From Escherichia coli (lineage in GTDB: Bacteria; Pseudomonadota; Gammaproteobacteria; Enterobacterales; Enterobacteriaceae), in the NCBI RefSeq assembly GCF_050920415.1, contig NZ_CP169309.1: a stretch of DNA of 64,000 bases. The stretch is one strand, 5' to 3'. The notes beneath the pieces are model-generated. The model did no database searches. It worked only from the letters and a program-made list of their open reading frames with translations, and had not been told where the DNA came from. The position numbers were made by a program, and so were the translations under genes. Shown one piece after another: positions 9,970 through 29,389 of the stretch. Position 1 is the first letter of the stretch. Each line of letters opens with the position of its first letter.

Positions 9970-9985
9970 TGGAGCATAAAACCCA

Positions 9986-11044: not shown

Positions 11045-11047
11045 ACC

Positions 11048-12461: not shown

Positions 12462-12464
12462 ATT

Positions 12465-12680
12465 ATGACGCTTGAGCGAATCAGCGCCTTTATCACGTAT
12501 TGCATCGCCGTCGTGCTGGCCTGGCTGGGCGATTTGTCCATCAAGGATGCCTCAACGCTGGGCGGCCTGATGATTGGTGTGCTGATGCTGGCTATCAACT
12601 GGTACTACAAACACAAAGCCTACCAGCTTCTGCGCGACGGGCAGATTTCGCGGGAGGACTATGAATCCATCAATCGTTAA
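12465..12680 (+). CDS. holin (small, two predicted TM segments; pinholin-like)
   Basis: 71 aa with two hydrophobic stretches and charged C-terminus; immediately upstream of SAR endolysin. Confidence 0.6.
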   Translation: MTLERISAFITYCIAVVLAWLGDLSIKDASTLGGLMIGVLMLAINWYYKHKAYQLLRDGQISREDYESINR

Positions 12681-13601: not shown

Positions 13602-13734
13602 CGGTGATCTGAACGCATTGCTGGATGAAACGGAGGCCGCCTGGGCGGTCTGTGCAGACAAAGTGGACATGATTATTGCGTGTCAGGAGCGAAACAGTGA
13701 ACAAACCACAATCCCTGCGCCACGCCCTCAATAA
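13444..13734 (+). CDS. o-spanin lipoprotein (LysC/Rz1-like), overlapping i-spanin in +1 frame
   Basis: 96 aa with lipobox LTLSGC; begins inside the i-spanin gene. Confidence 0.55.
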   Translation: MRTRIYAAGLILLCLLTLSGCGNVRHSPEVQLTVSGCPRVTPCRLEQAAPRTNGDLNALLDETEAAWAVCADKVDMIIACQERNSEQTTIPAPRPQ

Positions 13735-14128
13735 AGCAGTGCCTTATGTCCGCAATAACCCGGATAAGCTGCATCTGTTTGTGGATAACGGTTCGCTGGT
13801 TGCCACGGGGGCCAGCTCCATGTCATGGGAGTACCGTTATACCCTCAACGTGGTGATTGAGGATTTCAGCGGCGACCAGAATCTGCTGATGGCCCCGGTT
13901 TTGCTGTGGCTGCGTGATAACCAGCCCGATGCCATCAATAATCCGGCGTTACGGGAAAAGTTATTCACCTTTGAGGTGGATATTCTGCGCAACGATGTCT
14001 GTGATATCAGCCTCAACCTGCAACTGACGGAACGTGTGCTGGTCAGCACTGACGGAAGTGTGTCGAGCGTTGAAGCAGTAGCGGAACCCGATGAACCTGA
14101 AGAAATGTGGACGGTGAAACGTGGCTGA
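13697..14128 (+). CDS. tail completion protein R (P2 gpR-like)
   Basis: Similarity to P2 R (NPDKLHLFVDNGS, RYTLNV motifs); GTG start at 13697 after ggagcg RBS. Confidence 0.8.
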   Translation: MNKPQSLRHALNKAVPYVRNNPDKLHLFVDNGSLVATGASSMSWEYRYTLNVVIEDFSGDQNLLMAPVLLWLRDNQPDAINNPALREKLFTFEVDILRNDVCDISLNLQLTERVLVSTDGSVSSVEAVAEPDEPEEMWTVKRG

Positions 14129-14573
14129 ACTGCAGAAGGTGGACGACTGGCTGAGTGCTTTGCTGGCGAATCTGGAACCAGCCGCAAGAAGCCGAATGAT
14201 GCGCCAGCTGGCGCAGGAACTGCGCCGGACACAGCAGCAGAATATCAGGATGCAGCGCAATCCAGATGGCAGCAGTTATGAGCCGCGCAGGGTAACAGCA
14301 CGCAGCAAGAAGGGGCGCATCAAACGTCAGATGTTTGCAAAGCTGCGCACCACAAAATACCTGAGAACTGCCGCCAGCGCGGATTCTGCCAGCGTACAGT
14401 TTGAAGGTAAGGTACAGCGTATTGCCCGTGTTCATCACTACGGTCTGCGCGATCGCGTCAGTCCAAAGGGGGGAGTCATTAAGTATCCATCCCGAAAATT
14501 GCTGGGTTTAAATGAACATACTGAAAATGAAGTAAGAGATTTACTTTTAAAGTATTTATTGATGAAAAATTAG
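14121..14573 (+). CDS. tail completion protein S (P2 gpS-like)
   Basis: 150 aa; last ~30 codons are AT-rich and abut a convergent AT-rich orphan gene. Confidence 0.8.
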   Translation: MAELQKVDDWLSALLANLEPAARSRMMRQLAQELRRTQQQNIRMQRNPDGSSYEPRRVTARSKKGRIKRQMFAKLRTTKYLRTAASADSASVQFEGKVQRIARVHHYGLRDRVSPKGGVIKYPSRKLLGLNEHTENEVRDLLLKYLLMKN

Positions 14574-14578
14574 AATGT

Positions 14579-15109
14579 TTACGCTCTTAATAAACTTAAA
14601 TAACTTTTTATGCTTTGGCAAAAAGGGAAAAGGTCTATTTTAATTTTCCAGTTTTTTTTGTTTTGAACCCCAGAAGCAATAATAGAACCGTCCCAATATT
14701 TTATTCCATTTTTGCCGGTCTTTTTTGTTAACTCAAAACTTAATGCGTGAATAATTTTATTGCAGCATTCGCGTATAGAATCTTTAACATGACCATCTAT
14801 AACAAAAAGTATATTTTCATGTTCTTCAAATGCTTCTTTCTCAGGTGAGTAATCTGGGTTCCACTCATGTTCACTAGTGTCTTGGAGAATTCGTAGTTTT
14901 GTACAAAGGCTAATAAGATTGTTGCTAATGGTATATTCCAACCATCCGTTGTACGATAACTCCTCCATTTCAAATTCAGTTACTATAGAACCATCATATA
15001 CTTTCTGTGTGGAATATATACGCTGTAAATAAAATTCAGATGAACAGCATAATTGCTCAATTATTCTTGCGTGTTCTTCTATAGCGTAATAATCAATTGG
15101 ATGGCTCAT
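14579..15109 (-). CDS. AT-rich orphan gene antisense to the late operon (176 aa, no recognised domain)
   Basis: ORF on minus strand between S and V; aaagg RBS before ATG (MSHPIDYY); markedly AT-rich; ends 5 bp from S stop. Confidence 0.55.
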   Translation of the reverse strand: MSHPIDYYAIEEHARIIEQLCCSSEFYLQRIYSTQKVYDGSIVTEFEMEELSYNGWLEYTISNNLISLCTKLRILQDTSEHEWNPDYSPEKEAFEEHENILFVIDGHVKDSIRECCNKIIHALSFELTKKTGKNGIKYWDGSIIASGVQNKKNWKIKIDLFPFCQSIKSYLSLLRA

Positions 15110-15140
15110 TCTTTTACCTTTCTTTGATTGGAATTGTATT

Positions 15141-15158
15141 TGTGTCATTTACCACACA
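15141..15158 (+). promoter_or_regulatory. Ogr/Delta-type late promoter box (TGT-N12-ACA) upstream of V
   Basis: tgt-gtcatttaccac-aca ~50 bp upstream of V start. Confidence 0.4.
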
Positions 15159-15204
15159 AGGACGTATTGATGCCATAGATTCAAGGTCCGTGCAACCTAA
15201 CCCT

Positions 15205-15783
15205 ATGAACGCACAACTAACCGAAATCATGCGCCTTATCACCAACCTGATCCGCACTGGTGTAGTCACCGAAGTGGACCGGGAAAACTGGCTTTGCCGG
15301 GTTAAAACGGGCGAGCTTGAAACCAACTGGATCAGCTGGCTGACGCTGCGTGCCGGGAATGCCCGCACATGGTGGCGACCATCGGAAGGTGAGCAGGTGG
15401 TGCTGCTGAGTCTGGGCGGCAATCTGGAAACTGCCTTTGCGCTGCCCGCTGTCTATTCGAATCAGTTCGCACCACCGTCGACGTCGGCAGACGCCTGCGT
15501 GACAGAACATCCTGACGGCGGCTGGTTTGAATACGAACCCACTACCGGGCGCTGGTATGTCAGGGGCATCAAATCAATGGTCATTGAGGCCGCTGACAAC
15601 ATCACCATGAAAACCAGTGAGTTTGTACTGGAGGCTGACCGCACGCGCATTAACAGCGAAGTGGTGATCAATGGTGGCGTTACCCAGGGCGGCGGAGCGA
15701 TGAGTTCTAACGGGATCGTGGTTGATGCGCATCAGCATACTGACGTCCTGAAAGGCGGCGACACAACCGGAGGCCCGGTATGA
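15205..15783 (+). CDS. baseplate spike/assembly protein V (P2 gpV-like)
   Basis: Similarity to P2 V; start set at ATG 15205 (MNAQLTEIMRL). Confidence 0.85.
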   Translation: MNAQLTEIMRLITNLIRTGVVTEVDRENWLCRVKTGELETNWISWLTLRAGNARTWWRPSEGEQVVLLSLGGNLETAFALPAVYSNQFAPPSTSADACVTEHPDGGWFEYEPTTGRWYVRGIKSMVIEAADNITMKTSEFVLEADRTRINSEVVINGGVTQGGGAMSSNGIVVDAHQHTDVLKGGDTTGGPV

Positions 15784-16139
15784 CGCTTTATAGCGGGATG
15801 AACAATACCAGCGGTAAAGCCATTACTGATATTGATCATCTGCGCCAGTCGGTGCGGGACATTTTGCTGACGCCGCAGGGTAGCCGCATTGCCCGTCGGG
15901 AATATGGTTCCCTGCTGTCGGCACTGATAGACCAGCCACAAAATCCGGCATTACGCCTGCAGGTCATGTCGGCAGTGTATGTGGCGCTGAGTCGCTGGGA
16001 GCCACGGCTGACGCTGGATTCCATCACCATTAACAGCAATTTTGACGGTTCAATGGTGGTGGAGCTGACCGGGCGGCGTAATAACGGTGTGCCTGTTTCC
16101 CTTTCCGTATCAACAGGAGCAGAGAATGGCAGTGATTGA
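15780..16139 (+). CDS. baseplate protein W (gp25-like)
   Basis: 119 aa, position and size as P2 W. Confidence 0.8.
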   Translation: MTLYSGMNNTSGKAITDIDHLRQSVRDILLTPQGSRIARREYGSLLSALIDQPQNPALRLQVMSAVYVALSRWEPRLTLDSITINSNFDGSMVVELTGRRNNGVPVSLSVSTGAENGSD

Positions 16140-17034
16140 CCTTTCGCAGTTGCCTGCGCCGCAGATTGTGGATGTGCCGGACTTTGAGACGCTGCTTGCC
16201 GAACGCAAGGCAGAATTTGTGGCGCTTCATCCGAAAGATGAGCAGGAAGCAGTGATCCGCACGCTGGAACTGGAATCTGAACCCGTCACCAAATTGTTGC
16301 AGGAGAATGCTTACCGTGAGTTGCTTCTGCGCCAGCGCATTAACGAAGCCGCGCAGGCGGTGATGGTGGCTTATGCCATAGGGGGCGATCTGGACCAGCT
16401 CGCCGCCAACTACAACGTGAAACGCCTGACGGTGACGCCTGCTGATAATGACGCTGTGCCGCCCGTTGCAGCTGTGATGGAAAGCGATGAAGCGTTACGC
16501 CTGCGTGTGCCTGCAGCCTTTGAAGGGCTTTCAGTTGCGGGGCCAACTGCAGCTTATGAATTTCATGCCCGAAGCGCCGACGGTCGGGTGGCGGATGCCA
16601 GTGCAACCAGCCCAGCACCTGCAGAGGTGGTGCTGACTGTCCTTAGCCGCGAAGGCGATGGAACTGCAGAAAAAGACCTGCTGGACGTGGTGAAAAAAGC
16701 TCTGAACAGTGAGAACGTCCGCCCGGTGGCTGACCGTCTTACGGTTCGCAGCGCAGAAATCATCCCGTATCGCGTGGAAGCCACCATTTTTCTCTATCCG
16801 GGACCGGAAGCAGAGCCGGTAATGGCAGCGGCAAAAGCCAGTCTGCAGAAGTACATTGCCAGCCAGACGAGGCTTGGTCGGGATATTCGCCGTAGCGCCA
16901 TCTTTGCTGCTCTGCATGTTGAGGGTGTTCAACGTGTGGAACTGGCTTCTCCGCTGGCGGATGTGGTCCTGAACAAAACACAGGCGGCATCATGTACGCA
17001 GTGGAGCGTAACCAACGGAGGAACGGATGAATAG
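16126..17034 (+). CDS. baseplate wedge protein J (P2 gpJ-like)
   Basis: 302 aa from ATG 16126 (MAVIDLSQLP). Confidence 0.85.
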   Translation: MAVIDLSQLPAPQIVDVPDFETLLAERKAEFVALHPKDEQEAVIRTLELESEPVTKLLQENAYRELLLRQRINEAAQAVMVAYAIGGDLDQLAANYNVKRLTVTPADNDAVPPVAAVMESDEALRLRVPAAFEGLSVAGPTAAYEFHARSADGRVADASATSPAPAEVVLTVLSREGDGTAEKDLLDVVKKALNSENVRPVADRLTVRSAEIIPYRVEATIFLYPGPEAEPVMAAAKASLQKYIASQTRLGRDIRRSAIFAALHVEGVQRVELASPLADVVLNKTQAASCTQWSVTNGGTDE

Positions 17035-17632
17035 TCTGCTGCCACCGGGTTCAACTTCACTGGAGCGCCGACTGGCGCAAACCTGTAGCGGGATTTCTGA
17101 TCTGCAGGTGCCGCTGCGTGACTTGTGGAATCCGGCTACCTGTCCGGTCAGCTTCCTGCCTTATCTCGCCTGGGCGTTCTCTGTGGATCGCTGGGACGAG
17201 GGCTGGACAGAAAGCGTCAAACGCCAGGTAGTGAAGGATGCTTTTTATATTCATCAGCATAAAGGAACTACCAGTGCCGTGCGGCGGGTGGTGGAACCGT
17301 TCGGATTCCTGATCCGCATTATTGAGTGGTGGCAGACCGGAGAAACACCGGGCACGTTTCGCCTGGATATCGGCGTGCAGGACCAGGGCATCACTGAAGA
17401 TACCTATCTGGAACTTGAGCGGCTGATAAGCGATGCCAAACCATGTAGCCGTCACATGATCGGCATGTCCATCAATCTGCAGACCAGCGGTCCGCATTGG
17501 GTGGGGGCCGCCAGCTATCTTGGCGAAGAAATCACGATCTATCCGTATATCAACGAAACAATTATTTCCGGCGGCACCGCGCATGAAGGCGGGGCGGTCC
17601 ATGTTATTGACACAATGAGAGTGAATCCATGA
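17027..17632 (+). CDS. baseplate protein I (P2 gpI-like)
   Basis: 201 aa, overlaps J stop and H start. Confidence 0.8.
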   Translation: MNSLLPPGSTSLERRLAQTCSGISDLQVPLRDLWNPATCPVSFLPYLAWAFSVDRWDEGWTESVKRQVVKDAFYIHQHKGTTSAVRRVVEPFGFLIRIIEWWQTGETPGTFRLDIGVQDQGITEDTYLELERLISDAKPCSRHMIGMSINLQTSGPHWVGAASYLGEEITIYPYINETIISGGTAHEGGAVHVIDTMRVNP

Positions 17633-19026
17633 GCACAAAATTTTATACCCTGCTGACGGATATTGGCGCGGCGAAACTTGCCAGCGCCGCCGCGCTCGGT
17701 GTGCCGCTAAAAATTACCCATATGGCGGTGGGCGATGGCGGCGGAACATTGCCAACGCCGGACGCCAAGCAGACAGCATTGGTAAATGAGAAACGCCGGG
17801 CTGCGCTGAATATGCTCTATATCGACCCGCAGAACAGCAGCCAGATTATTGCTGAACAGGTGATCCCTGAAAACGAGGGCGGTTGGTGGATACGTGAAGT
17901 GGGCCTGTTTGATGAGTCCGGGGCATTGATTGCCGTGGGCAACTGCCCGGAAAGCTATAAGCCGCAACTGGCTGAAGGCAGCGGGCGTACCCAGACCGTG
18001 CGCATGGTGCTGATTACCAGCAGCACGGACAATATCACCCTGAAAATCGACCCTGCCGTAGTGCTGGCAACCCGCAAGTATGTGGATGACAAGGTACTGG
18101 AGCTGAAGGTGTACGTGGATGATCAGATGGCAAAACATCTTGCCGCACCGGACCCGCATTCACAGTATGCACCCAAAGAAAGTCCGACGTTTACCGGGAC
18201 ACCAAAAGCGCCAACTCCAGCGGCAGGGAATAACACCACGCAGGTTGCGACCACCGCGTTTGTTCAGGCGGCACTGACGGCTCTTATTAATGGTGCGCCA
18301 GCCACGCTGGACACGCTGAAAGAAATAGCCGCAGCCATTAACAATGATCCGAATTTCAGTACCACCATTAACAATGCGCTGGCACTGAAAGCGCCGTTGT
18401 CGAGTCCGGCACTCACCGGAACGCCAACAGCCCCCACTGCTGCACAGTCGGTCAACAATACACAGATTGCCACCACGGCTTTTGTGAAATCGGCGATTGC
18501 AGCAATGGTAGGTTCTGCACCTGCGGCACTGGATACACTGAACGAACTGGCGTCGGCGTTGGGGAATGATCCGAACTTTGCCACGACAATGCTTAATGCG
18601 CTGGCAGGTAAACAACCGCTGGACAATACGCTGACTAATTTGAGTGGAAAGGATGTCGCTGGTCTTCTCGCATACCTTGGTTTGGGGGAATTGGCTCTGG
18701 CTGGCGCAACAACCGGCGCTATGTTGGTGAATGGGTATGTAGCAATTCCATTAATTATTTCTGGCGTTCGGAGACCACTTATTATCCAGTGGGGAGTGGG
18801 GCAGTTTGGGGGAAGTCTGGGGGATGATGCGGGATATTTAAACAATTTCCCTTTCGCTTTTCCGTCGGCGTGCTACGTGATGGTTGCCAGCCACGTGGGG
18901 CATACACCTTCGGGTGCCGGAATACTATCTGCTTCCGCAATCACAAAAAGCGGCTTTCGTGGTTTTTCCAGCGTAGTGACTGCCGCAAATCCTGTATCGG
19001 GCTGTTATGTTGCTATAGGAGGGTGA
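17629..19026 (+). CDS. tail fibre protein H; C-terminal 112 codons lie inside an invertible segment
   Basis: 465 aa; conserved N-terminus (MSTKFYTLLTDIGAAK...); internal tandem repeats; recombination site within codons LLAYLGLGE. Confidence 0.85.
   Translation: MSTKFYTLLTDIGAAKLASAAALGVPLKITHMAVGDGGGTLPTPDAKQTALVNEKRRAALNMLYIDPQNSSQIIAEQVIPENEGGWWIREVGLFDESGALIAVGNCPESYKPQLAEGSGRTQTVRMVLITSSTDNITLKIDPAVVLATRKYVDDKVLELKVYVDDQMAKHLAAPDPHSQYAPKESPTFTGTPKAPTPAAGNNTTQVATTAFVQAALTALINGAPATLDTLKEIAAAINNDPNFSTTINNALALKAPLSSPALTGTPTAPTAAQSVNNTQIATTAFVKSAIAAMVGSAPAALDTLNELASALGNDPNFATTMLNALAGKQPLDNTLTNLSGKDVAGLLAYLGLGELALAGATTGAMLVNGYVAIPLIISGVRRPLIIQWGVGQFGGSLGDDAGYLNNFPFAFPSACYVMVASHVGHTPSGAGILSASAITKSGFRGFSSVVTAANPVSGCYVAIGG
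18181..18624 (+). repeat. two tandem ~222 bp (74 aa) repeats within tail fibre gene
   Basis: SPTFTGTPKAP...NDPNFSTT and SPALTGTPTAP...NDPNFATT segments are clearly homologous. Confidence 0.6.
18665..18690. repeat. Hin/Gin-type recombination crossover site (left, inside H)
   Basis: ttctcgcatacc-tt-ggtttgggggaa: imperfect 26 bp palindrome matching hix/gix-like sites; inverted copy at 20480-20505. Confidence 0.55.
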
Positions 19027-20027: not shown

Positions 20028-20492
20028 TATGCAGCCCTCACAATATAATTAAAGGCGATGTTACGTGGACGGTTTTCATTAGCTGTTGGCACGACACGAG
20101 AGGCGTCGAATCCAAGGTCATCGGTTTTGTCTATAGTAGTTGTGTTATTCGGCATTCTCGCTGATCGTGTTCCTGCATCGTAAAAAGCCCCTCTGATTGC
20201 ATCAAAAGACATACCGATCCCGCCATCTGCGAATCCCTCAATATTTCTTATTGCATCCCCCTGTGAAGATAATAATTGTCGCCCGGCATCCACTCCACGT
20301 CCGTCATCCCAGCCACGAATAAATTCACCGCGTAAATCAGGCAATTTATTTTTCGGATAAACCTTTGCCAGTTCCGGGTATTCTTCAGCAGAAAAAGCCG
20401 CACCGTTGCATTTCAGCCAGCCAGTAGGCGGTGTGGCTGAAGGCCACGGAACAGGCACACCAACGGGTAATGCTGAACCTTCTCCCAAACCA
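20027..20492 (-). CDS. alternative tail fibre C-terminal cassette (promoterless; expressed only after inversion)
   Basis: Minus-strand frame open through right crossover site; contains Mu S'/P1-type fibre tip motif LPDLRGEFIRGWDDGRGVDAGR. Confidence 0.7.
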
Positions 20493-20505
20493 ACGTTTAT
20501 GAAAA
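20480..20505. repeat. Hin/Gin-type recombination crossover site (right)
   Basis: ttctcccaaacc-aa-cgtttatgaaaa; inverted relative to site at 18665-18690; 55 bp upstream of invertase gene. Confidence 0.55.
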
Positions 20506-20560
20506 TGCAGAGATAACGGCTAACTGGCATCATCTCCGGTTTTTATTCAGGGGGATGATC

Positions 20561-21127
20561 ATGCTTATTGGCTATGTACGCGTGTCAACAAATGACCAGA
20601 ACACCGATTTGCAACGTAATGCACTGAACTGCGCGGGATGTGAGCGGATTTTTGAGGATAAAATCAGTGGCACTAAGTCCGACAGACCGGGGCTGAAAAA
20701 GCTGCTCAGGACACTATCGGCAGGAGACACGCTGGTTGTCTGGAAGCTGGACAGGTTGGGGCGCAGTATGCGGCATCTTGTTACGCTGATAGAGGAGTTG
20801 CGCCAGCGTGGTGTGAATTTCCGAAGCCTGACTGACAGTATTGATACCAGTACCCCAATGGGCCGTTTCTTTTTTCATGTCATGGGTGCCCTGGCTGAAA
20901 TGGAACGCGAACTGATAGTTGAACGTACCAGGGCAGGGCTGGCTGCAGCTCGTGCCAAAGGCAGAGTAGGTGGACGCCGTCCTAAGTTGACCACCGAACA
21001 GTGGGCACAGATTGGGCGTTTACTCGAGGCCGGAGAATCAAGACAGCGTATTGCACTGATTTTTGATGTGGGTGTTTCCACAATTTATAGAAAATTTCCG
21101 GCAAATAAGAGTAATGAATCCCCCTGA
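20561..21127 (+). CDS. site-specific DNA invertase, serine recombinase (Hin/Gin/Cin/Pin family)
   Basis: N-terminus MLIGYVRVSTNDQNTDLQRNAL with catalytic Ser; resolvase fold plus C-terminal HTH (GVSTIYRKF). Confidence 0.85.
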   Translation: MLIGYVRVSTNDQNTDLQRNALNCAGCERIFEDKISGTKSDRPGLKKLLRTLSAGDTLVVWKLDRLGRSMRHLVTLIEELRQRGVNFRSLTDSIDTSTPMGRFFFHVMGALAEMERELIVERTRAGLAAARAKGRVGGRRPKLTTEQWAQIGRLLEAGESRQRIALIFDVGVSTIYRKFPANKSNESP

Positions 21128-21175
21128 ATCAGCATTATTTTGATTATCCCTGCAAGTAGACAAATACCGTCATTT

Positions 21176-21193
21176 TGTGTGAATAACGGTACA
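21176..21193 (+). promoter_or_regulatory. Ogr/Delta-type late promoter box (TGT-N12-ACA) upstream of sheath gene
   Basis: tgt-gtgaataacggt-aca ~75 bp upstream of FI start. Confidence 0.4.
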
Positions 21194-21269
21194 ACTGCGC
21201 TTAGCTGTTTGTCAGGCACAATCACTTCAACATAGGGCGAAGCCTAATCCAATCAGGAGGTTCGCCACT

Positions 21270-22442
21270 ATGGCTCAGGATTACCACCACGGGGTGCGCG
21301 TTGTTGAAGTCAACGAAGGCACCCGATCCATTACCACGGTGAGCACCGCCATCGTGGGCATGGTCTGCACGGGCGATGATGCCGATGCAAAAATGTTTCC
21401 TCTTAACAAACCTGTGCTGATCACTGATGTGCTGACTGCCAGCGGTAAAGCGGGTGAGTCCGGCACGCTGGCCCGTTCGCTGGATGCCATCGCTGACCAG
21501 GCAAAACCCGTGACCGTTGTTGTGCGTGTGCCGCAGGGTGAAACGGAAGAAGAAACCACGACCAATATCATCGGCGCAGTGACTGCTGAAGGTAAAAAAA
21601 CAGGCATGAAAGCTCTGTTATCTGCCCAGTCACAGCTCGGCGTTAAACCGCGCATTCTCGGCGTGCCAGGTCACGATAACAAAGCCGTTGCGACTGAGTT
21701 GCTGAGCGTGGCGCAAAGCCTGCGTGGGTTTGCTTACCTGTCAGCGTATGGCTGCAAGACGGTACAGGAGGCGATCACTTACCGTGAAAACTTCAGCCAG
21801 CGCGAAGGAATGCTGATCTGGCCCGACTTTACTGGCTGGGACACGGTGCTGAATGCCGAAGCAACGGCATATGCCACCGCCCGTGCACTTGGTCTGCGTG
21901 CCAAAATTGATGAGCAGACCGGGTGGCACAAAAGCCTGTCCAACGTGGGCGTGAACGGTGTCACCGGAATTTCTGCAGATGTGTTCTGGGATCTGCAGGA
22001 CCCGGCAACCGATGCAGGTCTGCTGAACCAGAACGACGTCACCACGCTTGTGCGTAAAGACGGTTTCCGCTTCTGGGGTTCCCGCTGTCTGAGCGATGAT
22101 CCGCTTTTTGCCTTCGAAAACTACACCCGCACGGCGCAGGTGCTGACGGACACAATGGCAGAAGCACACATGTGGGCGGTGGATAAACCGCTTAACCCGT
22201 CGCTGGCCCGCGACATTATCGAAGGTATCCGCGCCAAAATACGCAGCCTGGTCAGTCAGGGCTATCTCATTGGTGGTGATTGCTGGCTGGATGAGTCGGT
22301 GAACGACAAAGACACGCTGAAAGCCGGAAAACTCACCATCGACTATGACTACACGCCAGTGCCGCCACTTGAAAATCTGATGCTGCGCCAGCGCATCACC
22401 GATCAGTACCTGGTGAATTTCGCCAGCCAGGTCAGCGCGTAA
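21270..22442 (+). CDS. contractile tail sheath protein (P2 gpFI-like)
   Basis: 390 aa, P2 FI-like. Confidence 0.9.
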
Positions 22443-22451
22443 GGGGACAAC

Positions 22452-22967
22452 ATGGCTTTACCACGCAAATTAAAACATCTGAACCTGTTTAACGACGGGA
22501 ACAACTGGCAGGGGATCGTTGAGTCGCTGACGCTGCCGAAATTCACCCGCAAATATGAGAAGTATCGCGGCGGCGGAATGCCGGGTGCAGTGGATGTGGA
22601 TCTGGGGCTTGATGACAGTGCGCTGGACACAGAATTTTCCATTGGTGGTACTGAACTGCTGCTGTTTAAGCAGATGGGCAAAGCCACGGTAGATGGCATT
22701 CAGCTGCGCTTTACCGGCTCTATCCAGCGTGACGATACCGGGGAAGTGCAGGCCGTGGAGCTTGTGGTGCGTGGACGTCACAAAGAAGTGGATTCCGGCG
22801 AGTGGAAGACGGGCGAAAGCAACACCACCAAAGTGACCAGTACCAACAGCTACGCGAAGCTGACCATCAATGGTGAGGTGCTCTATGAAGTGGACCTTAT
22901 CAACATGGTGGAAATTGTGGACGGTGTGGACCTGATGGAAGCGCACCGCAACGCCCTCGGCCTCTGA
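22452..22967 (+). CDS. tail tube protein (P2 gpFII-like)
   Basis: 171 aa, P2 FII-like. Confidence 0.9.
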   Translation: MALPRKLKHLNLFNDGNNWQGIVESLTLPKFTRKYEKYRGGGMPGAVDVDLGLDDSALDTEFSIGGTELLLFKQMGKATVDGIQLRFTGSIQRDDTGEVQAVELVVRGRHKEVDSGEWKTGESNTTKVTSTNSYAKLTINGEVLYEVDLINMVEIVDGVDLMEAHRNALGL

Positions 22968-23021
22968 TGTATCTGAACGGCGCGGGATACCGCGCCAGAA
23001 CCCAATTTACAGGACAGCAAA

Positions 23022-23324
23022 ATGAGCGATAAGCAGACTGAAAAGACTATTCAACTGGATACCCCCATCAAGCGCGGTAAAACAGAAATCACCGAAATTG
23101 TGCTGCGTAAACCGCAGTCCGGTGCGCTGCGCGGTACACGCCTGCAGGCCATTATGGATATGGATGTGAACGCGATGATGACCGTGATCCCCCGTATCTC
23201 CAGTCCGGCACTGACTGCACAGGAAATTGCAGAGATGGACCCGGCAGATCTCACTGCCATGTCGGTTGAGGTTGTCACTTTTTTGTTGAAGAAGTCGGTG
23301 CTTGCCGGTTTACCGACAGCCTGA
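23022..23324 (+). CDS. tail assembly chaperone E (P2 gpE-like); E+E' extension by -1 frameshift would end at 23457
   Basis: 100 aa; slippery T-TTT-TTG near 3' end; -1 frame stays open to TGA at 23455-23457. Confidence 0.8.
   Translation: MSDKQTEKTIQLDTPIKRGKTEITEIVLRKPQSGALRGTRLQAIMDMDVNAMMTVIPRISSPALTAQEIAEMDPADLTAMSVEVVTFLLKKSVLAGLPTA
23279..23285 (+). promoter_or_regulatory. programmed -1 ribosomal frameshift slippery heptamer (E/E')
   Basis: T TTT TTG in zero frame of E; downstream -1 frame encodes ~57 further aa overlapping tape-measure start. Confidence 0.5.
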
Positions 23325-23450
23325 CGGTTGACGATCTGGTGGCTGATATCGCCACCATCTTTCACTGGCCGCCATCCGTTACTGACGTTATGCCGCTGAC
23401 CGAAGTGCTGGAATGGCGGTATAAAGCGATTCAGAGAAGCGGGGCCAACG

Positions 23451-26400
23451 ATGAGTGATAACAACCTGCGGCTGCAGGTCATTCTTAATGCGGTTGACAA
23501 ACTCACCCGCCCATTCCGTGTTGCACAGGCCAGTTCGAAAGAGCTGGCTGGCGCAATTCAGAATACCCGAAACAGCCTCAAAGAACTGAATAAGCAGGCT
23601 GGCAGAATTGATGAATTTCGCAAGACGCGCTCGCAACTAGCCATAACAGCCAACAACCTGAACGCAGCCCGCGAAGAGGCGGCAAAACTCGCCACACAAT
23701 TTGCTGCCACTAACAGGCCAACCGCCGCGCAGGCAAAGTTATTCAGTCAGGCCAAAACACGAGTACAGGAACTTCAGCAGACCTATAACGGCTTGTTGGG
23801 GGCGGTCCAGAGACAACGTCAGGCACTTAAAGAATCAGGGATTGATACCAGACAACTCAGTAGTGCCCAGCGAGAACTTAAGAAAAATGCTGAAGAAACA
23901 AGGCAGGCACTGGAGGGCCAGCAAAAAGCACTTAAACGTCTGGGTGAACAACAGTCACGGATGAACGCTGCCAGAGAACAATACTCAAGACGGCTTGAAG
24001 TGCGCGATCGCATCGCAGGAGCCGGAGCCACTACCACGGCTGCAGGGCTGGCAATGGGTGCGCCAGTGATGGCAGCAGTAAAAAGCTATACCAGCATGGA
24101 AGATGCCATGAAAGGTGTGGCAAAGCAGGTCAATGGTCTGCGTGATGATAATGGCAACCGCACTGCGCGTTTTTACGAAATGCAGGATGCCATCAAGGCT
24201 GCCAGCGAACAGTTGCCGATGGAAAACGGTGCTGTGGACTTTGCCGCACTGGTTGAAGGTGGTGCGCGCATGAACGTCGCAAATCCTGACGACAGCTGGG
24301 AAGACCAGAAACGTGACCTGCTGGCCTTCGCCAGCACGGCAGCAAAGGCGGCAACAGCCTTTGAGCTGCCAGCGGATGAACTGTCAGAAAGTCTGGGGAA
24401 AATCGCCCAGCTCTACAAAATCCCTACCCGCAATATTGAACAGCTCGGTGATGCGCTGAACTATCTGGATGATAACGCCATGTCGAAAGGGTCAGACATC
24501 ATTGATGTCATGCAACGCCTGGGCGGTGTGGCAGATCGTCTGGATTATCGTAAAGCGGCGGCGCTGGGTTCCACCTTCCTGACACTGGGCGCTGCGCCGG
24601 AGGTTGCTGCCAGTGCAGCAAACGCGATGGTGCGTGAATTGTCCATTGCCACCATGCAAAGTAAGAGTTTCTTTGAAGGGATGAATCTGCTGAAACTCAA
24701 TCCTGAAGTGATTGAAAAGCAGATGACGAAGGATGCGATGGGAACTATCCAGCGTGTGCTGGAGAAGGTGAACGCACTGCCGCAGGACAAGCGTCTGTCT
24801 GCCATGACCATGTTGTTTGGTAAAGAGTTTGGTGATGATGCAGCGAAACTGGCAAACAACCTTCCGGAACTGCAGCGCCAGCTAAAACTGACAGCGGGCA
24901 ATGATGCGCTCGGTTCCATGCAGAAAGAATCCGACATCAACAAAGACTCACTTTCCGCTCAGTGGTTGCTGGTCAAAACCGGAGCGCAGAACACCTTCAG
25001 CAGCCTGGGCGAAACGCTGCGCCAGCCGCTGATGGATATTCTGTACACGGTGAAAAGCATCACGGGGGCGTTGCGCCGCTGGGTGGAAGCTAACCCGGAA
25101 CTGACAGGCACACTGATGAAAGTAGCGGCTGTTGTGGCTGCGGTTACCGTAGGCCTCGGCACCTTAGCGGTGGCGCTGGCTGCAGTGCTGGGGCCGCTGG
25201 CAGTCATCCGTCTGGGATTCTCTGTGCTGGGTATCAAAACGTTACCTTCCGTTACGGCAGCAGTAACACGAACCAGCAGCGCGTTGTCCTGGTTAGCTGG
25301 CGCTCCACTGGCACTGCTGCGACGCGGGCTTGCTTCATCGGGCAACGCAGCGGGTTTACTTACTGCGCCGTTGTCGTCTTTGCGCCGCACCGCATCACTG
25401 ACGGGGAATGTCCTGAAAACTGTAGCAGGTGTGCCGGTTGCACTGTTGCGGTCTGGATTATCCGGTTTACGTGCGGTTGCTGTGATGTTTATGAATCCAC
25501 TGGCAGCACTACGCGGTGGACTGGCTGCCGCAGGCGCGGTGCTGCGTGTGCTGGCATCCGATCCGCTGGCGATGCTGCGCGTTGCCCTGTATGCCGTATC
25601 TGGTCTGTTAGGTGCTCTGCTCAGTCCGATAGGTCTTGTGGTTACTGCACTGGCGGGCGTGGCGCTGGTTGTCTGGAAATACTGGCAACCCATCACCGCA
25701 TTTCTCGGTGGCGTGGTGGAAGGATTCAAAGCGGCGGCAGGTCCCATCAGTGCTGCATTCGAACCGCTTAAGCCCGTGTTCCAGTGGATTGGCGACAAAG
25801 TACAGGCGTTGTGGGGCTGGTTTACTGATCTGCTGACGCCTGTTAAGTCGACCTCTGCCGAACTGCAGAGCGCAGCGGCAATGGGGCGACGATTCGGGGA
25901 GGCACTGGCGGAAGGGCTGAATATGGTCATGCATCCGTTGGACTCCCTGAAATCCGGCGTTTCCTGGTTGCTGGAGAAACTCGGTATTGTCAGTAAAGAG
26001 GCTGCAAAGGCGAAACTGCCGGAAAGCGTGACGCGTCAGCAACCTGCGACGGTGAATGCAGACGGTAAAGTGATGATGCCATCGGGTGGTTTTCCGTCAT
26101 GGGGATATGGCTTTGCGGGGATGTATGACAGCGGCGGCTATATCCCGCGCGGGCAGTTCGGCATTGTCGGTGAAAACGGGCCTGAAATTGTCAACGGTCC
26201 GGCAAACGTGACCAGTCGGAGAAATACAGCTGCACTGGCTGCCGTTGTTGCCGGAATGATGGGCGTTGCTGCCGCGCCTGCAGAGCTTCCGCCGTTACAT
26301 CCTTTGGCACTTCCCGCGAAAGGCGGCGAAGCGATGGTGAGTCGTGCAGCCACTGTGCCGCCCGCTCAACGGATTGAGGCACCGACGCAGATCATCATCC

Positions 26401-26528
26401 AGACGCAGCCAGGACAAAGTGCGCAGGATATTGCGCGGGAGGTGGCACGCCAGCTTGATGAACGTGAACGCAGGCTGAAGGCAAAAGCCAGGAGTAACTA
26501 CAGCGATCAGGGGGGATACGACGCATGA
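23451..26528 (+). CDS. tail tape measure protein (P2 gpT-like), 1025 aa
   Basis: Long alpha-helical-type protein with central hydrophobic Ala/Leu-rich block; position between E and U. Confidence 0.85.
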   Translation: MSDNNLRLQVILNAVDKLTRPFRVAQASSKELAGAIQNTRNSLKELNKQAGRIDEFRKTRSQLAITANNLNAAREEAAKLATQFAATNRPTAAQAKLFSQAKTRVQELQQTYNGLLGAVQRQRQALKESGIDTRQLSSAQRELKKNAEETRQALEGQQKALKRLGEQQSRMNAAREQYSRRLEVRDRIAGAGATTTAAGLAMGAPVMAAVKSYTSMEDAMKGVAKQVNGLRDDNGNRTARFYEMQDAIKAASEQLPMENGAVDFAALVEGGARMNVANPDDSWEDQKRDLLAFASTAAKAATAFELPADELSESLGKIAQLYKIPTRNIEQLGDALNYLDDNAMSKGSDIIDVMQRLGGVADRLDYRKAAALGSTFLTLGAAPEVAASAANAMVRELSIATMQSKSFFEGMNLLKLNPEVIEKQMTKDAMGTIQRVLEKVNALPQDKRLSAMTMLFGKEFGDDAAKLANNLPELQRQLKLTAGNDALGSMQKESDINKDSLSAQWLLVKTGAQNTFSSLGETLRQPLMDILYTVKSITGALRRWVEANPELTGTLMKVAAVVAAVTVGLGTLAVALAAVLGPLAVIRLGFSVLGIKTLPSVTAAVTRTSSALSWLAGAPLALLRRGLASSGNAAGLLTAPLSSLRRTASLTGNVLKTVAGVPVALLRSGLSGLRAVAVMFMNPLAALRGGLAAAGAVLRVLASDPLAMLRVALYAVSGLLGALLSPIGLVVTALAGVALVVWKYWQPITAFLGGVVEGFKAAAGPISAAFEPLKPVFQWIGDKVQALWGWFTDLLTPVKSTSAELQSAAAMGRRFGEALAEGLNMVMHPLDSLKSGVSWLLEKLGIVSKEAAKAKLPESVTRQQPATVNADGKVMMPSGGFPSWGYGFAGMYDSGGYIPRGQFGIVGENGPEIVNGPANVTSRRNTAALAAVVAGMMGVAAAPAELPPLHPLALPAKGGEAMVSRAATVPPAQRIEAPTQIIIQTQPGQSAQDIAREVARQLDERERRLKAKARSNYSDQGGYDA

Positions 26529-27010
26529 TGATGGTGCTGGGATTGTACGTGTTTATGCTGCGCACTGTGCCGTATCAGGAACTGCAGTATCAACGCAGCT
26601 GGCGACATGCGGCAAACAGCCGGGTCAACCGACGTCCGTCCACGCAGTTTCTGGGACCGGACAACGACATGCTGACGCTTTCTGGTGTTCTTATGCCGGA
26701 GATAACAGGCGGCAGGCTGTCGTTGCTGGTACTGGAGCAGATGGCAGAACAGGGGAAAGCATGGCCCCTGATTGAAGGCAGCGGCACGATTTACGGCATG
26801 TATGTGATTGAGGGACTGAATCAGACTAAAACGGAGTTTTTCCGCGACGGTATGCCGCGCCGGATTGAGTTCACCCTGTCGCTCAAACGGGTGGATGAAT
26901 CCCTGTCCGATATGTTCGGTGATCTCAGTGCGCAACTGAATAATCTGCAGGACACGGCAACGTCTGCCTTAAGCGATATCAGTAAAACGGTGGGAGGGCT
27001 GCTGTCGTGA
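26525..27010 (+). CDS. tail protein U (P2 gpU-like)
   Basis: 161 aa, overlaps T stop. Confidence 0.8.
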   Translation: MMMVLGLYVFMLRTVPYQELQYQRSWRHAANSRVNRRPSTQFLGPDNDMLTLSGVLMPEITGGRLSLLVLEQMAEQGKAWPLIEGSGTIYGMYVIEGLNQTKTEFFRDGMPRRIEFTLSLKRVDESLSDMFGDLSAQLNNLQDTATSALSDISKTVGGLLS

Positions 27011-28107
27011 ATTTCAGCTCTGAACTGCTTAACAAAGGCAACAAAACTCCCGCATTCAGCATCAGTATTGAGGGCAGGGATATCACCACTGTGCTGGATA
27101 ACCGCCTGATGAGTTTGACGCTGACGGACAATCGGGGCTTTGAAGCAGACCAGCTTGATCTGGAGCTGGACGACGCCGACGGAAAAATCGTGCTGCCGCG
27201 CCGTGGTGCGGTTATTACGCTGGCGCTGGGCTGGAAGGGGCAGCCGCTTTTCCCGAAAGGGGCATTCACGGTGGACGAGATTGAACACACTGGCGCACCG
27301 GACCGCCTGACTATCCGGGCGCGAAGTGCTGATTTTCGTGAAACGCTGAATACCCGCCGTGAAAAGTCGTGGCACAAGACCACCGTTGGGGAAGTGGTGA
27401 AGGAAATAGCTGCACGGCACAAACTGAAGATGGCATTGGGTAAAGACCTGTCAGATAAACCCGTGGAACATATAGACCAGACCAATGAGAGTGACGGCAG
27501 TTTTCTGATGCGACTGGCGCGCCAGTACGGTGCTATTGCGTCGGTGAAAAATGGCAATCTGTTATTCATCCGGCAGGGACAGGGCAAAAGCGCCAGCGGT
27601 AAACCACTGCCGGTGATCACTATCACGCGTAAGGACGGCGACAGTCACCGCTTTACCCTGGCAGATCGCGGAGCCTATACGGGCGTCATTGCCAGCTGGT
27701 TGCATACCCGCGAACCCGCGAAGAAAGAAAGCACCACGGTGAAGCGTAAGCGCAGAACTAAGAAGCAGAAGAAAGAGCCGGAAGCGAAGCAGGGCGATTA
27801 TCTGGTGGGGACGGATGAAAACGTGCTGGTACTTAATCGCACTTATGCCAACCGGAGCAACGCCGAACGAGCGGCGAAAATGCAGTGGGAACGCCTGCAA
27901 CGCGGTGTTGCGTCATTCTCGCTACAACTGGCGGAAGGTCGGGCAGATCTCTACACGGAAATGCCTGTGAAGGTCAGTGGCTTTAAACAGCCAATAGATG
28001 ATGCGGAATGGACCATTACGACTCTGACACATACCGTCAGCCCGGATAACGGTTTTACGACCAGTATTGAACTTGAAGTGAAAATTGGTGATCTTGAAAT
28101 GGAATAA
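27007..28107 (+). CDS. tail protein D (P2 late control gene D-like)
   Basis: 366 aa, P2 D-like. Confidence 0.85.
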   Translation: MNFSSELLNKGNKTPAFSISIEGRDITTVLDNRLMSLTLTDNRGFEADQLDLELDDADGKIVLPRRGAVITLALGWKGQPLFPKGAFTVDEIEHTGAPDRLTIRARSADFRETLNTRREKSWHKTTVGEVVKEIAARHKLKMALGKDLSDKPVEHIDQTNESDGSFLMRLARQYGAIASVKNGNLLFIRQGQGKSASGKPLPVITITRKDGDSHRFTLADRGAYTGVIASWLHTREPAKKESTTVKRKRRTKKQKKEPEAKQGDYLVGTDENVLVLNRTYANRSNAERAAKMQWERLQRGVASFSLQLAEGRADLYTEMPVKVSGFKQPIDDAEWTITTLTHTVSPDNGFTTSIELEVKIGDLEME

Positions 28108-28175
28108 ATGGTTCTCAATATTGGTATTTTGTGTATCATTGCAATGATTCTGATAGCAAAGGTAGGGATCTGGAT

Positions 28176-28394
28176 ATGATGAATTGTCCAAAGTGTGGTC
28201 ATGCGGCGCACACAAGGAGCAGTTTTCAAGTAACAGAAAGCACCAAAGAGCGTTACTGCCAGTGCCAAAATATTAACTGCGGGAGCACTTTTGTTACCCA
28301 TGAAACAGTGGTCCGGTTTATTGTGACACCTGCAGTGATTGCCACAGCCCCTCCACATCCATTGCCAGGTGGTCAGGGCCATATGAATTTTTAA
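28176..28394 (+). CDS. ogr: Ogr/Delta zinc-finger late transcription activator
   Basis: MMNCPKCGHAAHTRSS...ERYCQCQNINCGSTF: C-x2-C...C-x4-C pattern of Ogr; 72 aa from ATG 28176. Confidence 0.8.
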   Translation: MMNCPKCGHAAHTRSSFQVTESTKERYCQCQNINCGSTFVTHETVVRFIVTPAVIATAPPHPLPGGQGHMNF

Positions 28395-28420
28395 GAAAGA
28401 GAACCTGCTACGGCAGGTTT

Positions 28421-28903
28421 TTATTCATCTGGGATCTCACCCGTTTCAAGAAAATGTATAAAGCCAGGCTCATCTATGATGATAGTGCCTTTCATCCTGG
28501 CTGCCGATACTTTTGATGGGCCTGCATTGTAACCGCAACAGAGCATCTGAAGGTTTTGGGTTACAGATGTTCTTACCGTTAATCCTTGTTCATTCGCCTT
28601 ATCAACCAACCTTTCTTTATCTGCTTTCTTAAATCCGGTGAAACACACATCGAATGTATTTTTTTTCGGACCTGACTGCTTAGTGAGATGTGAGTAGTTT
28701 TCGGGGAGGAATGACGCGCATTCCTGAATGGCTTGTTCTTGTGAATCGTATTGTTTAAGAATGCGGTCTTTTCGGAAGGTTTTTATTCGATCGGTGTTCT
28801 TACAAATGCCCTGTATGTGATTTTCGCTATAACTGATGCTCTGTATTGAGTGAACACCGATACGACCATTTGCATTGATGTAAACAAAGTGAAGTTCTTC
28901 CAT
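28421..28903 (-). CDS. orphan protein with N-terminal WYL-like region and C-terminal BRCT-like domain (160 aa)
   Basis: R-x-F-R-x-D-R-I signature (IKTFRKDRI) in N-half; C-half FDVCFTGF...CCGYNAGPSKVSAARMKGTIIIDEPGF fits BRCT pattern; AT-rich; between ogr and ssrA. Confidence 0.5.
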   Translation of the reverse strand: MEELHFVYINANGRIGVHSIQSISYSENHIQGICKNTDRIKTFRKDRILKQYDSQEQAIQECASFLPENYSHLTKQSGPKKNTFDVCFTGFKKADKERLVDKANEQGLTVRTSVTQNLQMLCCGYNAGPSKVSAARMKGTIIIDEPGFIHFLETGEIPDE

Positions 28904-28989
28904 GTCAAACCTCTTTGCATGATTTCAAGATGGCGACAGGCAAGATGGACGCAAAAGTCTGTCGCCATTTTGCCGCCACTACCTAAGAA

Positions 28990-29026
28990 AAAGGGGCTAC
29001 GCTTTCACGTAACCCCTTGATTTATT
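28990..29026 (-). terminator. ssrA transcription terminator
   Basis: On minus strand ggggttacg-tgaaag-cgtagcccc hairpin followed by ttttt, directly after tmRNA 3' end. Confidence 0.5.
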
Positions 29027-29389
29027 TGGTGGAGCTGGCGGGAGTTGAACCCGCGTCCGAAATTCCTACATCCTCGGTACTACATGCTTAGTCAGTCTTT
29101 ACATTCGCTTGCCAGCTGCGGACGGACACGCCACTAACAAACTAGCCTGATTAAGTTTTAACGCTTCAACCCCAGGCAGGGCTTCCACGCGATCTCTTTT
29201 GGGTTTGACCTCTCTTGATCCCCGTCCTAAGAGCGGAGGCTAGGGAGAGAGGGCTCTAAGCAGGTTATTAAGCTGCTAAAGCGTAGTTTTCGTCGTTTGC
29301 GACTATTTTTTGCGGCTTTTTACGAGGCCAACCGCCCCTCGGCATGCACCTTGGGTTTCGCAAATCCCGTCGAATCCAGAATCAGCCCC
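29027..29389 (-). ncRNA. ssrA: tmRNA (SsrA), 363 nt
   Basis: Reverse complement matches E. coli tmRNA from GGGGCUGAUUCUGG 5' end to GCCAGCUCCACCA 3' end, including tag-encoding region. Confidence 0.95.

What the first reader, a model, noticed from the sequence alone, without database searches (positions are those of the whole stretch)
23451..26528. Enlarged tape-measure protein with an Ala/Leu-rich hydrophobic block
At 1025 aa the tape measure is ~25 percent longer than I recall for P2 (~815 aa), implying a longer tail. Residues encoded around 25,100-25,800 form a long low-complexity block of repeated A/L/G-rich hydrophobic segments, which also produces long spurious antisense ORFs.
Basis: partly seen in the sequence, partly recalled or inferred. 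Interest (0 to 1): 0.25.

Follow-up and report, generated by a model that had tools for sequence, protein, structure and literature searches.

The report
Ordinary long P2-type tape measure gene
This is the normal, already annotated tail-length "ruler" gene of a common P2-like E. coli prophage (phage Cartapus type); it is 210 residues longer than P2's, mostly through extra 21-22-residue hydrophobic repeat units and a longer C-terminal end, not through a gene fusion or assembly error.

Summary
The ORF at 23451-26528 (+) encodes 1025 aa, 25.8% more than P2 gpT (815 aa). Residues 549-746 (nt 25095-25688) form a Leu/Ala/Val/Gly-rich block (64%; 15 basic, 2 acidic residues). The 323-aa antisense ORF (24959-25930) is a composition by-product.

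The protein is 99.7% identical to the annotated tape measure of Escherichia phage Cartapus (E. coli LF82 prophage, Elveevirus). A 95% or more identical gene occurs in 1078 of 5426 complete E. coli genomes. The P2 gene order is intact: sheath, tube, E/E' chaperone with the TTTTTTG slip site, T, U, D.

Compared with P2, the N-terminal coil and TP901-type core have nearly the same length. The extra 210 aa lie in the block between Pro582 and Pro726 (+112), the C-terminal tail (+72), the core (+19) and the conserved segment (+9), with 2 fewer in the N-terminal coil. The block is a significant array of Pro-started 21/22-aa units. Unit number varies among near-identical relatives (961, 1003, 1025 and 1047 aa).

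There is no DNA tandem repeat and no fused neighbour. A tail of about 165-170 nm is inferred, not shown. Within the family (706-1194 aa) 1025 aa is upper range, not an outlier. Low interest, already known.

The parts
23022..23324 (+). gpE tail assembly chaperone. The slippery TTTTTTG at 23279-23285 drives the -1 frameshift into E'.
   Evidence: Pfam PF10109 Phage_TAC_7, E=1e-18. The slip heptamer matches the annotated P2 frameshift site.
23339..23458 (+). E' extension (the -1 frame part of gpE+E'). It ends 8 nt inside gene T, as in P2.
   Evidence: Pfam PF06528 Phage_P2_GpE, E=1.6e-20. The Cartapus annotation gives the same gene, and the sequence shows the overlap.
23451..26528 (+). Gene T: tail tape measure protein, 1025 aa.
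   Evidence: ORF. TIGR01760, 314 bits. PF10145, 68 bits. phrog_28, E=1.4e-209. 99.7% aa identity to the Cartapus tape measure protein YP_010664000.
23451..24047 (+). aa 1-199: N-terminal long-helix (coiled-coil-like) region. Its length is invariant across the family.
   Evidence: 47% identity to P2 gpT 3-177. AF2 helices 11-182 with pLDDT 82-93 over most of their length. Length 198 +/- 4.5 aa in 63 relatives.
24048..25151 (+). aa 200-567: TP901-family tape-measure core.
   Evidence: TIGR01760 matches aa 200-567 here and 199-549 in P2. PF10145 matches aa 246-457. AF2 pLDDT is about 90.
25194..25625 (+). aa 582-725: length-variable array of Pro-started 21/22-aa units. The five units at aa 619-725 (nt 25305-25625), of the form 'PLxxLRxGL...', have no counterpart in P2.
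   Evidence: Unit listing. Periodicity test. Alignments with P2, Fels-2 and SEN5. Segment lengths of 14-215 aa across the family, r=0.79 with total length. Block lengths of 80, 122, 144, 155 and 166 aa in relatives at least 83% identical.
25593..26051 (+). aa 715-867: conserved segment shared with P2 gpT 586-736. It includes the last hydrophobic helices and Trp/Phe-rich helices.
   Evidence: BLASTP 45% identity, E=2e-38.
26052..26525 (+). aa 868-1025: C-terminal tail, 72-79 aa longer than in P2. It contains the motif at aa 885-926 (nt 26103-26228), 'GGYIPRGQFGIVGENGPEIVNGP', which is shared with many unrelated tape measures.
   Evidence: The motif is 60-65% identical in siphovirus tape measures.
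24959..25930 (-). 323-aa antisense ORF, a by-product of composition and not a gene.
   Evidence: Simulation. No Pfam hit. It lies wholly inside a conserved structural gene. P2, Fels-2 and MLG42 show similar antisense open runs of 237-343 codons.
26525..27010 (+). gpU homologue. Its start overlaps the T stop (ATGA).
   Evidence: PF06995, E=6.7e-44. ORF coordinates.
27007..28107 (+). gpD baseplate hub homologue.
   Evidence: PF05954, E=2.2e-27.

Best explanation
The ORF is gene T, the tail tape measure protein of a P2-like (Peduoviridae, Elveevirus, Cartapus-type) prophage integrated next to ssrA.

Shown:
- It has the P2 gpT layout: an N-terminal long-helix region (aa 1-199), a TP901-type core (200-567), a hydrophobic block (549-746), a conserved Trp/Phe-rich helical segment (715-867) and a C-terminal tail (868-1025).
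- It sits between the frameshifted chaperone genes E/E' and U/D.
- The 210 extra residues relative to P2 are distributed as +112 in a tandem array of Pro-started 21/22-aa hydrophobic, Arg-bearing units (five units absent from P2), +72 in the C-terminal tail, +19 in the core and +9 in the conserved segment, with 2 fewer in the N-terminal coil.
- This block is the main length-variable module of the whole family. It gains or loses whole units among near-identical prophages.

Inferred from work on lambda, TP901-1 and other phages, not tested here:
- The protein is kept soluble by gpE/gpE+E', and the tube (FII) and sheath (FI) polymerise around it from the hub until its N-terminal end is reached.
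- Tail length would therefore scale at about 1.5-1.66 A per residue. That gives about 165-170 nm instead of P2's 135 nm, or roughly 8-9 more tube/sheath rings.
- On infection the protein is expelled, and its hydrophobic segments probably help to form the DNA conduit across the inner membrane.
For: - Identity: 99.7% aa identity to the annotated Cartapus tape measure, with 4 nt differences. TIGR01760 scores 314 bits against a cutoff of 28.8. PF10145. phrog_28, E=1.4e-209.
- Synteny and separate neighbours. The slip site and the gene overlaps match P2.
- Source of the extra length: BLASTP against P2, the five-way alignment, and segment lengths in 63 relatives.
- Repeat array.
- Natural unit-number variants.
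- No DNA duplication.
- Commonness: 1078 of 5426 complete E. coli genomes. The 1025-aa protein clusters hold 1625 and 9661 member sequences.
- Ruler principle: in TP901-1, deletions shorten the tail in proportion, including deletions in a hydrophobic region. A 347-aa deletion takes the tail from 118 to 65 nm (PMC5099701).
- P2 tail length of 135 nm: PMC7552001.
Against: - No micrograph of Cartapus exists. The authors never saw it by TEM (PMC9928086).
- The only measured relative, MLG42 (1021-aa tape measure), is reported with a 234-nm tail but also a 128-nm head for a 31-kb genome. Its tail:head ratio is 1.8, against about 2.2 for 186-type phages in the same noisy table. That dataset therefore neither supports nor refutes a longer tail.
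- AlphaFold gives no confident structure for the block (pLDDT below 50 for 563-738), so its helical, extended state in the tail is assumed.
- The confident compact model of the core shows that the simple assumption that every residue adds 1.5 A is an approximation.
Confidence: 0.9

Rival explanations
1. The extra length is an artefact: gene T is fused to a neighbouring gene, or the assembly duplicated a segment.
For: Fusions do occur in other genomes. P0037 (1186 aa) carries both PF10145 and PF06995, which makes it a T-U fusion.
Against: In this window E, E', U and D are separate ORFs with their own families, and none of those families hits inside T. TRF and the repeat finder show no DNA duplication. 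The same 3078-nt gene occurs in 957 complete E. coli genomes at 80% coverage or more, and in independent phage records from Klebsiella and Yersinia.
Confidence: 0.01
2. The extra hydrophobic units do not act as ruler. They would serve membrane insertion or channel formation, or chaperone binding, and be folded back or cleaved, so the tail is not proportionally longer than P2's.
For: The block is hydrophobic and net basic (+13), as expected for membrane-active helices. Hydrophobic stretches of tape measures have been linked to chaperone binding and to possible pore formation (PMC5099701). AF2 gives no extended helix there. The tail:head ratio of MLG42 is not larger than that of 186-type phages.
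Against: In TP901-1, a deletion inside a hydrophobic region (43 aa) did shorten the tail from 118 to 107.6 nm. Within this family the block is the segment whose length tracks total length (r=0.79), and it changes by whole units, which is the behaviour expected of a spacer. The two roles are not exclusive.
Confidence: 0.2
3. The 323-aa antisense ORF (24959-25930, minus strand) is a real overlapping gene.
For: It is long, and it stays open in Klebsiella 4LV2017.
Against: Redrawing codons for the same sense protein gives antisense open runs of 321 +/- 79 codons, so the observed run is typical. There is no Pfam hit. Comparable runs occur in P2, Fels-2 and MLG42. The frame shares its wobble position with the sense frame, so its persistence follows from sense-strand constraint.
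Confidence: 0.02

Closest known systems
Escherichia phage Cartapus tail tape measure protein (YP_010664000, NC_070909; E. coli LF82 prophage 4; Elveevirus)
   Same: 1025 aa, 99.7% aa identity, 4 nt differences over 3078 nt. The flanking late genes are 99.9% identical.
   Different: Effectively the same gene. The window's prophage differs from Cartapus only outside T, in the tail-fibre/invertible segment and in the region between the replication genes and the portal gene.
Bacteriophage P2 gpT (NP_046782, 815 aa)
   Same: Same position between E/E' and U. Same module order. 47% identity over aa 4-178 and 45% over 715-867. The TP901 core is recognised in both.
   Different: P2 has 32 aa where this protein has the 144-aa repeat block, and it lacks the five 'PLxxLR' units. 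Its C-terminal tail is 72-79 aa shorter and retains only a vestige ('GTGDYIP') of the GGYIP...VGENGPE motif.
Salmonella phage Fels-2 / SopEPhi gpT-like protein (935 aa)
   Same: 77% aa identity and collinear throughout.
   Different: It lacks 86 aa (four units) of the repeat block, which is 58 aa there against 144 aa here.
Lactococcus phage TP901-1 tape measure protein (namesake of TIGR01760; experimentally dissected)
   Same: It has the shared core domain, hydrophobic regions and a tandem-repeat region whose length sets the tail length.
   Different: TP901-1 is a siphovirus. Its repeats are 11/18-aa Trp/Phe units, not 21/22-aa Pro-started Leu/Ala/Arg units. No similarity is detectable outside the core.

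Membership tests
Phage tail tape measure protein, TP901-family core (TIGR01760 / Pfam PF10145 PhageMin_Tail) | Profile match above the curated cutoff | tested here: met
   TIGR01760 scores 314.4 bits against a cutoff of 28.8 over aa 200-567. PF10145 scores 68 bits against a cutoff of 33.2 over aa 246-457.
Phage tail tape measure protein, TP901-family core (TIGR01760 / Pfam PF10145 PhageMin_Tail) | The gene lies directly downstream of a tail assembly chaperone pair made by a -1 frameshift, and upstream of the tail-tip/hub genes | tested here: met
   E (PF10109) and E' (PF06528) lie upstream with TTTTTTG at 23279-23285. U (PF06995) and D (PF05954) lie downstream.
Phage tail tape measure protein, TP901-family core (TIGR01760 / Pfam PF10145 PhageMin_Tail) | Long, predominantly alpha-helical protein | tested here: inconclusive
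   AF2 predicts confident helices for aa 11-182 and 195-575. pLDDT is below 50 for 563-738 and 875-976, so the block itself is unresolved.
Phage tail tape measure protein, TP901-family core (TIGR01760 / Pfam PF10145 PhageMin_Tail) | Protein length determines tail length | not testable with these tools
   This needs EM of particles and of length variants. No reliable micrographs exist in the literature.
P2 gpT orthologue (Peduoviridae tape measure) | Sequence similarity to P2 gpT at both ends, with collinear modules | tested here: met
   BLASTP E=3e-43 for aa 4-178 and E=2e-38 for aa 715-867. Collinear alignment.
P2 gpT orthologue (Peduoviridae tape measure) | P2 late-operon synteny FI-FII-E/E'-T-U-D-ogr | tested here: met
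Elveevirus (Cartapus / 4LV2017 type) tape measure | Near-identity in sequence and the same length (1021-1025 aa) as classified members | tested here: met
   Cartapus 99.7%, 4LV2017 89%, MLG42 84%, with lengths of 1025, 1025 and 1021 aa.

The most novel reading that the evidence does not exclude
The Pro-started 21/22-aa units (43-aa double period) may be a modular ruler extension. Whole-unit gains and losses among near-identical prophages give alleles of 961, 1003, 1025 and 1047 aa. At 1.5-1.66 A per residue one unit spans about 33-36 A, which is close to one tube/sheath ring (about 38 A in R-type pyocins, a figure I give from memory). If so, these alleles would yield natural populations of P2-like phages whose tails differ by discrete numbers of rings. 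That would be a ready-made allelic series for testing how a contractile tail's length is counted.
Probability: 0.35. Interest if true: 0.35.

Novelty: already known. Interest (0 to 1): 0.1.

Why it matters
It matters little. The gene is already annotated as the tape measure of a described phage, and it is present in about one fifth of complete E. coli genomes. The one modestly useful point concerns where the length difference from P2 lies. It is concentrated in a defined repeat array that varies by whole units between otherwise near-identical prophages. That offers a natural allelic series for testing the ruler model in contractile tails, where it has been tested far less than in siphoviruses. 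The case is also a clean example of how an Ala/Leu-rich coding region creates long false antisense ORFs that gene callers should ignore.

Tried and rejected
- DNA-level repeat searches (TRF and seed-extension) found no tandem or long direct repeats in 23300-26700. The repeats are visible only in the protein.
- The PDB sequence search gave only marginal hits to other tape measures (9j1k_J FtbJ at E=0.006 over aa 693-826; 8kea_G 'tmp' at E=0.14). There is no P2-type structure.
- AlphaFold2 with a 63-sequence alignment gave mean pLDDT 66. The N-terminal region and the core are confident, but the hydrophobic block and the C-terminal tail are below 50, so nothing can be said about their fold.
- Foldseek against the PDB gave no match with E below 0.1.
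- The codon-position substitution test for the antisense ORF cannot discriminate, because that frame shares the wobble position with the sense frame. The codon-redraw simulation was used instead.
- The literature search for tail-length measurements of Elveevirus/Felsduovirus phages found only the MLG42 table. Its head size is implausible and its spread is large (heads 60-90 nm and tails 133-176 nm among near-identical 186-type phages), so it is unusable.
- A simple 'P[LIVM]xx[LMFI][RQ]' count across 105 family representatives showed that this motif is confined to this lineage and does not track length family-wide (r=-0.01). The block's length does track total length.
Full report
**Observation.** The window has an ORF at 23451..26528 on the + strand encoding 1025 aa.

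- The 50-aa blocks from residue 551 to 750 are 56-68% Ala+Leu+Gly+Val and only 6-10% charged.
- A 41-residue Kyte-Doolittle average above 0.6 covers aa 546-624 and 646-760.
- Residues 549-746 (nt 25095-25688) are Leu 20.7%, Ala 19.2%, Val 13.1% and Gly 10.6%, with 15 basic and 2 acidic residues.

Long antisense ORFs are present: 24959-25930 (323 aa), 24545-24943 and 25608-26042.

**What it is.** The protein is the tail tape measure of a P2-like prophage.
- Family matches: TIGR01760 (tape_meas_TP901) at 314 bits against a cutoff of 28.8 over aa 200-567. Pfam PF10145 over aa 246-457. PHROG 28, 'tail length tape measure protein', at E=1.4e-209.
- Nearest phage: it is 99.7% identical to the annotated tape measure of Escherichia phage Cartapus (NC_070909, Elveevirus), with 4 nt differences in 3078. 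Cartapus is prophage 4 of E. coli LF82 (PMC9928086).
- Flanking late region: windows 5435-18690 and 20479-29071 are 99.9% identical to Cartapus.
- Gene order is that of P2, and each gene is recognised by its own Pfam family (ogr):
  - sheath FI (21270-22442)
  - tube FII (22452-22967)
  - chaperone E (23022-23324)
  - E' (23339-23458)
  - T
  - U (26525-27010)
  - D (27007-28107)
  - ogr (28131-28394)
- Junctions: the P2 frameshift heptamer TTTTTTG is conserved at 23279-23285. E' ends 8 nt inside T exactly as in P2. T and U overlap by ATGA.

**Is the extra length an artefact?** No.
- None of the neighbours' families hits inside T.
- Tandem Repeats Finder finds nothing, and only short chance-level direct repeats turn up.
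- A gene at least 95% identical occurs in 1078 of 5426 complete E. coli genomes, and 957 of them cover 80% or more of it.
- 1021-1025-aa versions occur in independently sequenced Klebsiella, Yersinia and E. coli phages.
- Protein clusters represented by 1025-aa sequences hold 1625 and 9661 member sequences.
- A true T-U fusion does exist elsewhere. P0037 is 1186 aa and carries PF10145 plus PF06995. It shows what a fusion would look like, and this gene does not look like that.

**Where the 210 extra residues are.** BLASTP against P2 aligns only aa 4-178 (47% identity) and aa 715-867 with P2 586-736 (45%). The TP901 core is found in both proteins, at 200-567 here and 199-549 in P2. I cut a 63-sequence family alignment at nearly invariant anchors (G199, P549, P582, P726). 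The segment lengths are:

| Segment | This protein | P2 | Difference |
|---|---|---|---|
| N-terminal coil | 198 | 200 | -2 |
| TP901 core | 350 | 331 | +19 |
| First hydrophobic stretch | 33 | 33 | 0 |
| Block P582-P726 | 144 | 32 | +112 |
| Conserved segment | 141 | 132 | +9 |
| C-terminal tail | 159 | 87 | +72 |

The hydrophobic block therefore accounts for about half of the enlargement and the C-terminal tail for about a third.

**Nature of the block.** Splitting the sequence at prolines gives a regular series:
- 599 PSVTAAVTRTSSALSWLAGA
- 619 PLALLRRGLASSGNAAGLLTA
- 640 PLSSLRRTASLTGNVLKTVAGV
- 662 PVALLRSGLSGLRAVAVMFMN
- 683 PLAALRGGLAAAGAVLRVLASD
- 705 PLAMLRVALYAVSGLLGALLS
- 726 PIGLVVTALAGVALVVWKYWQ

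The last unit aligns with P2 597 PVVAVVAAIVAGALLIRKYWE. The five 'PLxxLR' units (aa 619-725) have no counterpart in P2.

The periodicity is statistically real. BLOSUM self-similarity over aa 599-746 peaks at lag 43 (z=7.6), lag 21 (z=4.6) and lag 64 (z=4.5). The largest z in 1000 shuffles was 5.76. The outer units are strongly hydrophobic. The middle ones each carry 2-3 Arg/Lys and are more amphipathic.

**Family context.**
- Among 105 near-full-length representatives of 50%-identity clusters, lengths run from 706 to 1194 aa with a median of 865, and 13% are 1025 aa or longer. This protein is in the upper range but is not an outlier.
- The N-terminal coil (198 +/- 4.5 aa) and the core (342 +/- 7 aa) are length-invariant.
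- The P582-P726 block varies from 14 to 215 aa (sd 48) and correlates best with total length (r=0.79). The C-terminal tail varies from 87 to 248 aa.
- Fels-2 (935 aa) equals this protein minus 86 aa, or four units, of the block.
- Among 120 relatives at least 83% identical, the block is 80, 122, 144, 155 or 166 aa. That gives alleles of 961, 1003, 1025, 1036 and 1047 aa, and the 1047-aa form carries an exact extra 22-aa unit.
- The C-terminal tail also expands in these relatives, giving forms of 1107, 1139 and 1149 aa.
- The specific PLxxLR motif is confined to this lineage.

**Antisense ORFs.** The longest antisense open run is 358 codons (24962-26035). I kept the protein and redrew codons from the phage's own late-gene usage. 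The mean longest antisense run was then 321 +/- 79 codons, and 48% of redraws gave a run of at least 323 codons. Synonymous permutation reaches the observed 358 codons in 25% of trials.

This frame shares its third position with the sense frame. A stop codon there requires a sense Tyr, His or Gln codon, and these are rare in the block. P2, Fels-2 and MLG42 have similar runs of 237-343 codons. The ORF's product has no Pfam match.

**Mechanism.** The anatomy above is shown. How the protein works is inferred from established knowledge of tape measures. The chaperones gpE/gpE+E' coat the hydrophobic tape measure. Tube and sheath polymerise around it from the hub (D, U) until its N-terminal end is reached, so tail length scales with protein length.

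In TP901-1, the namesake of the core domain, deletions shorten the tail in proportion. A 347-aa deletion takes it from 118 to 65 nm, about 1.5 A per residue. A 43-aa deletion in a hydrophobic region takes it from 118 to 107.6 nm (PMC5099701). P2's tail is 135 nm (PMC7552001), which is 1.66 A per residue. Scaling gives about 165-170 nm here.

The hydrophobic, net-basic block is also the obvious candidate for membrane insertion during DNA delivery and for chaperone binding. These roles do not exclude the ruler role.

**Limits.**
- Cartapus has never been seen by EM.
- The one measured relative, Yersinia phage MLG42 (1021-aa tape measure), is listed with a 234-nm tail but a 128-nm head for a 31-kb genome. 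The table's near-identical 186-type phages scatter from 133 to 176 nm, so it cannot be used.
- AlphaFold2 was confident for the N-terminal helices and the core but not for the block or the C-terminal tail (pLDDT below 50).
- Foldseek and PDB sequence searches gave nothing useful.

**Verdict.** The feature is an ordinary, already annotated and very common gene, and I rate its interest low. The only mildly new detail is that the enlargement relative to P2 lies largely in a lineage-specific array of 21/22-aa units whose number is polymorphic among near-identical prophages.

Noticed in passing
window 29027-29389 (-), with the prophage right end at about 29071: A tmRNA gene (ssrA, tag ANDENYALAA) abuts and overlaps the point where similarity to Cartapus ends. 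The prophage is therefore integrated at the 3' end of ssrA.
   Followed up: partly
window 18665-18690 and 20480-20505; invertase gene at 20555-21127: 26-nt inverted repeats flank a 1.79-kb segment next to a Gin/Hin-type invertase gene. This tail-fibre segment is the only part of the late region that does not match Cartapus, so it is a different invertible host-range cassette.
   Followed up: partly
window 26103-26228 (aa 885-926 of T): The short motif 'YGFAGMYDSGGYIPRGQFGIVGENGPEIVNGP' is 60-65% identical in tape measures of unrelated siphoviruses (Xanthomonas, Pseudomonas, Stenotrophomonas, Vibrio and Acinetobacter phages). It is reduced to 'GTGDYIP' in P2, and no Pfam model covers it.
   Followed up: partly
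relatives P0001-P0120 (not in the window): Near-identical tape measures come in discrete lengths: 961, 997, 1003, 1025, 1036, 1047, 1070, 1107, 1139 and 1149 aa. They arise by whole-unit changes in the repeat block or by expansion of the C-terminal tail. P0037 (1186 aa) is a T-U fusion.
   Followed up: yes
window 28421-28903 (-): A low-GC (about 0.40-0.43) 160-aa ORF lies between ogr and the attachment site. It is annotated in Cartapus as 'putative exonuclease' and is reported as expressed 15-fold above background in the LF82 lysogen, so it is a moron.
   Followed up: no
window 1-5435: Window 1-2260 matches the Cartapus replication-gene (gpA) region at only 94.8%. A 119-nt match to the left end of the Cartapus record, which is annotated as the cos site, lies at 3199-3317. 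The stretches 2260-3199 and 3317-5435 (ORFs 2326-3057 and 4640-5338) have no Cartapus counterpart, so the accessory content next to cos differs.
   Followed up: no
aa 200-560 of T (nt 24048-25130): AlphaFold2 predicts the TP901 core as a confident (pLDDT about 90) multi-helix compact domain rather than one extended helix. This sits awkwardly with the simple ruler picture of 1.5 A per residue.
   Followed up: no
window 51508-54093 and about 54100-59900: An 861-aa ORF is followed by a stretch of about 6 kb that has no ORF of 150 aa or more and contains tRNA-Glu(UUC) at 56242-56317. This looks like a host rRNA operon. The likely identification as clpB-rrn is from memory and was not tested.
   Followed up: no
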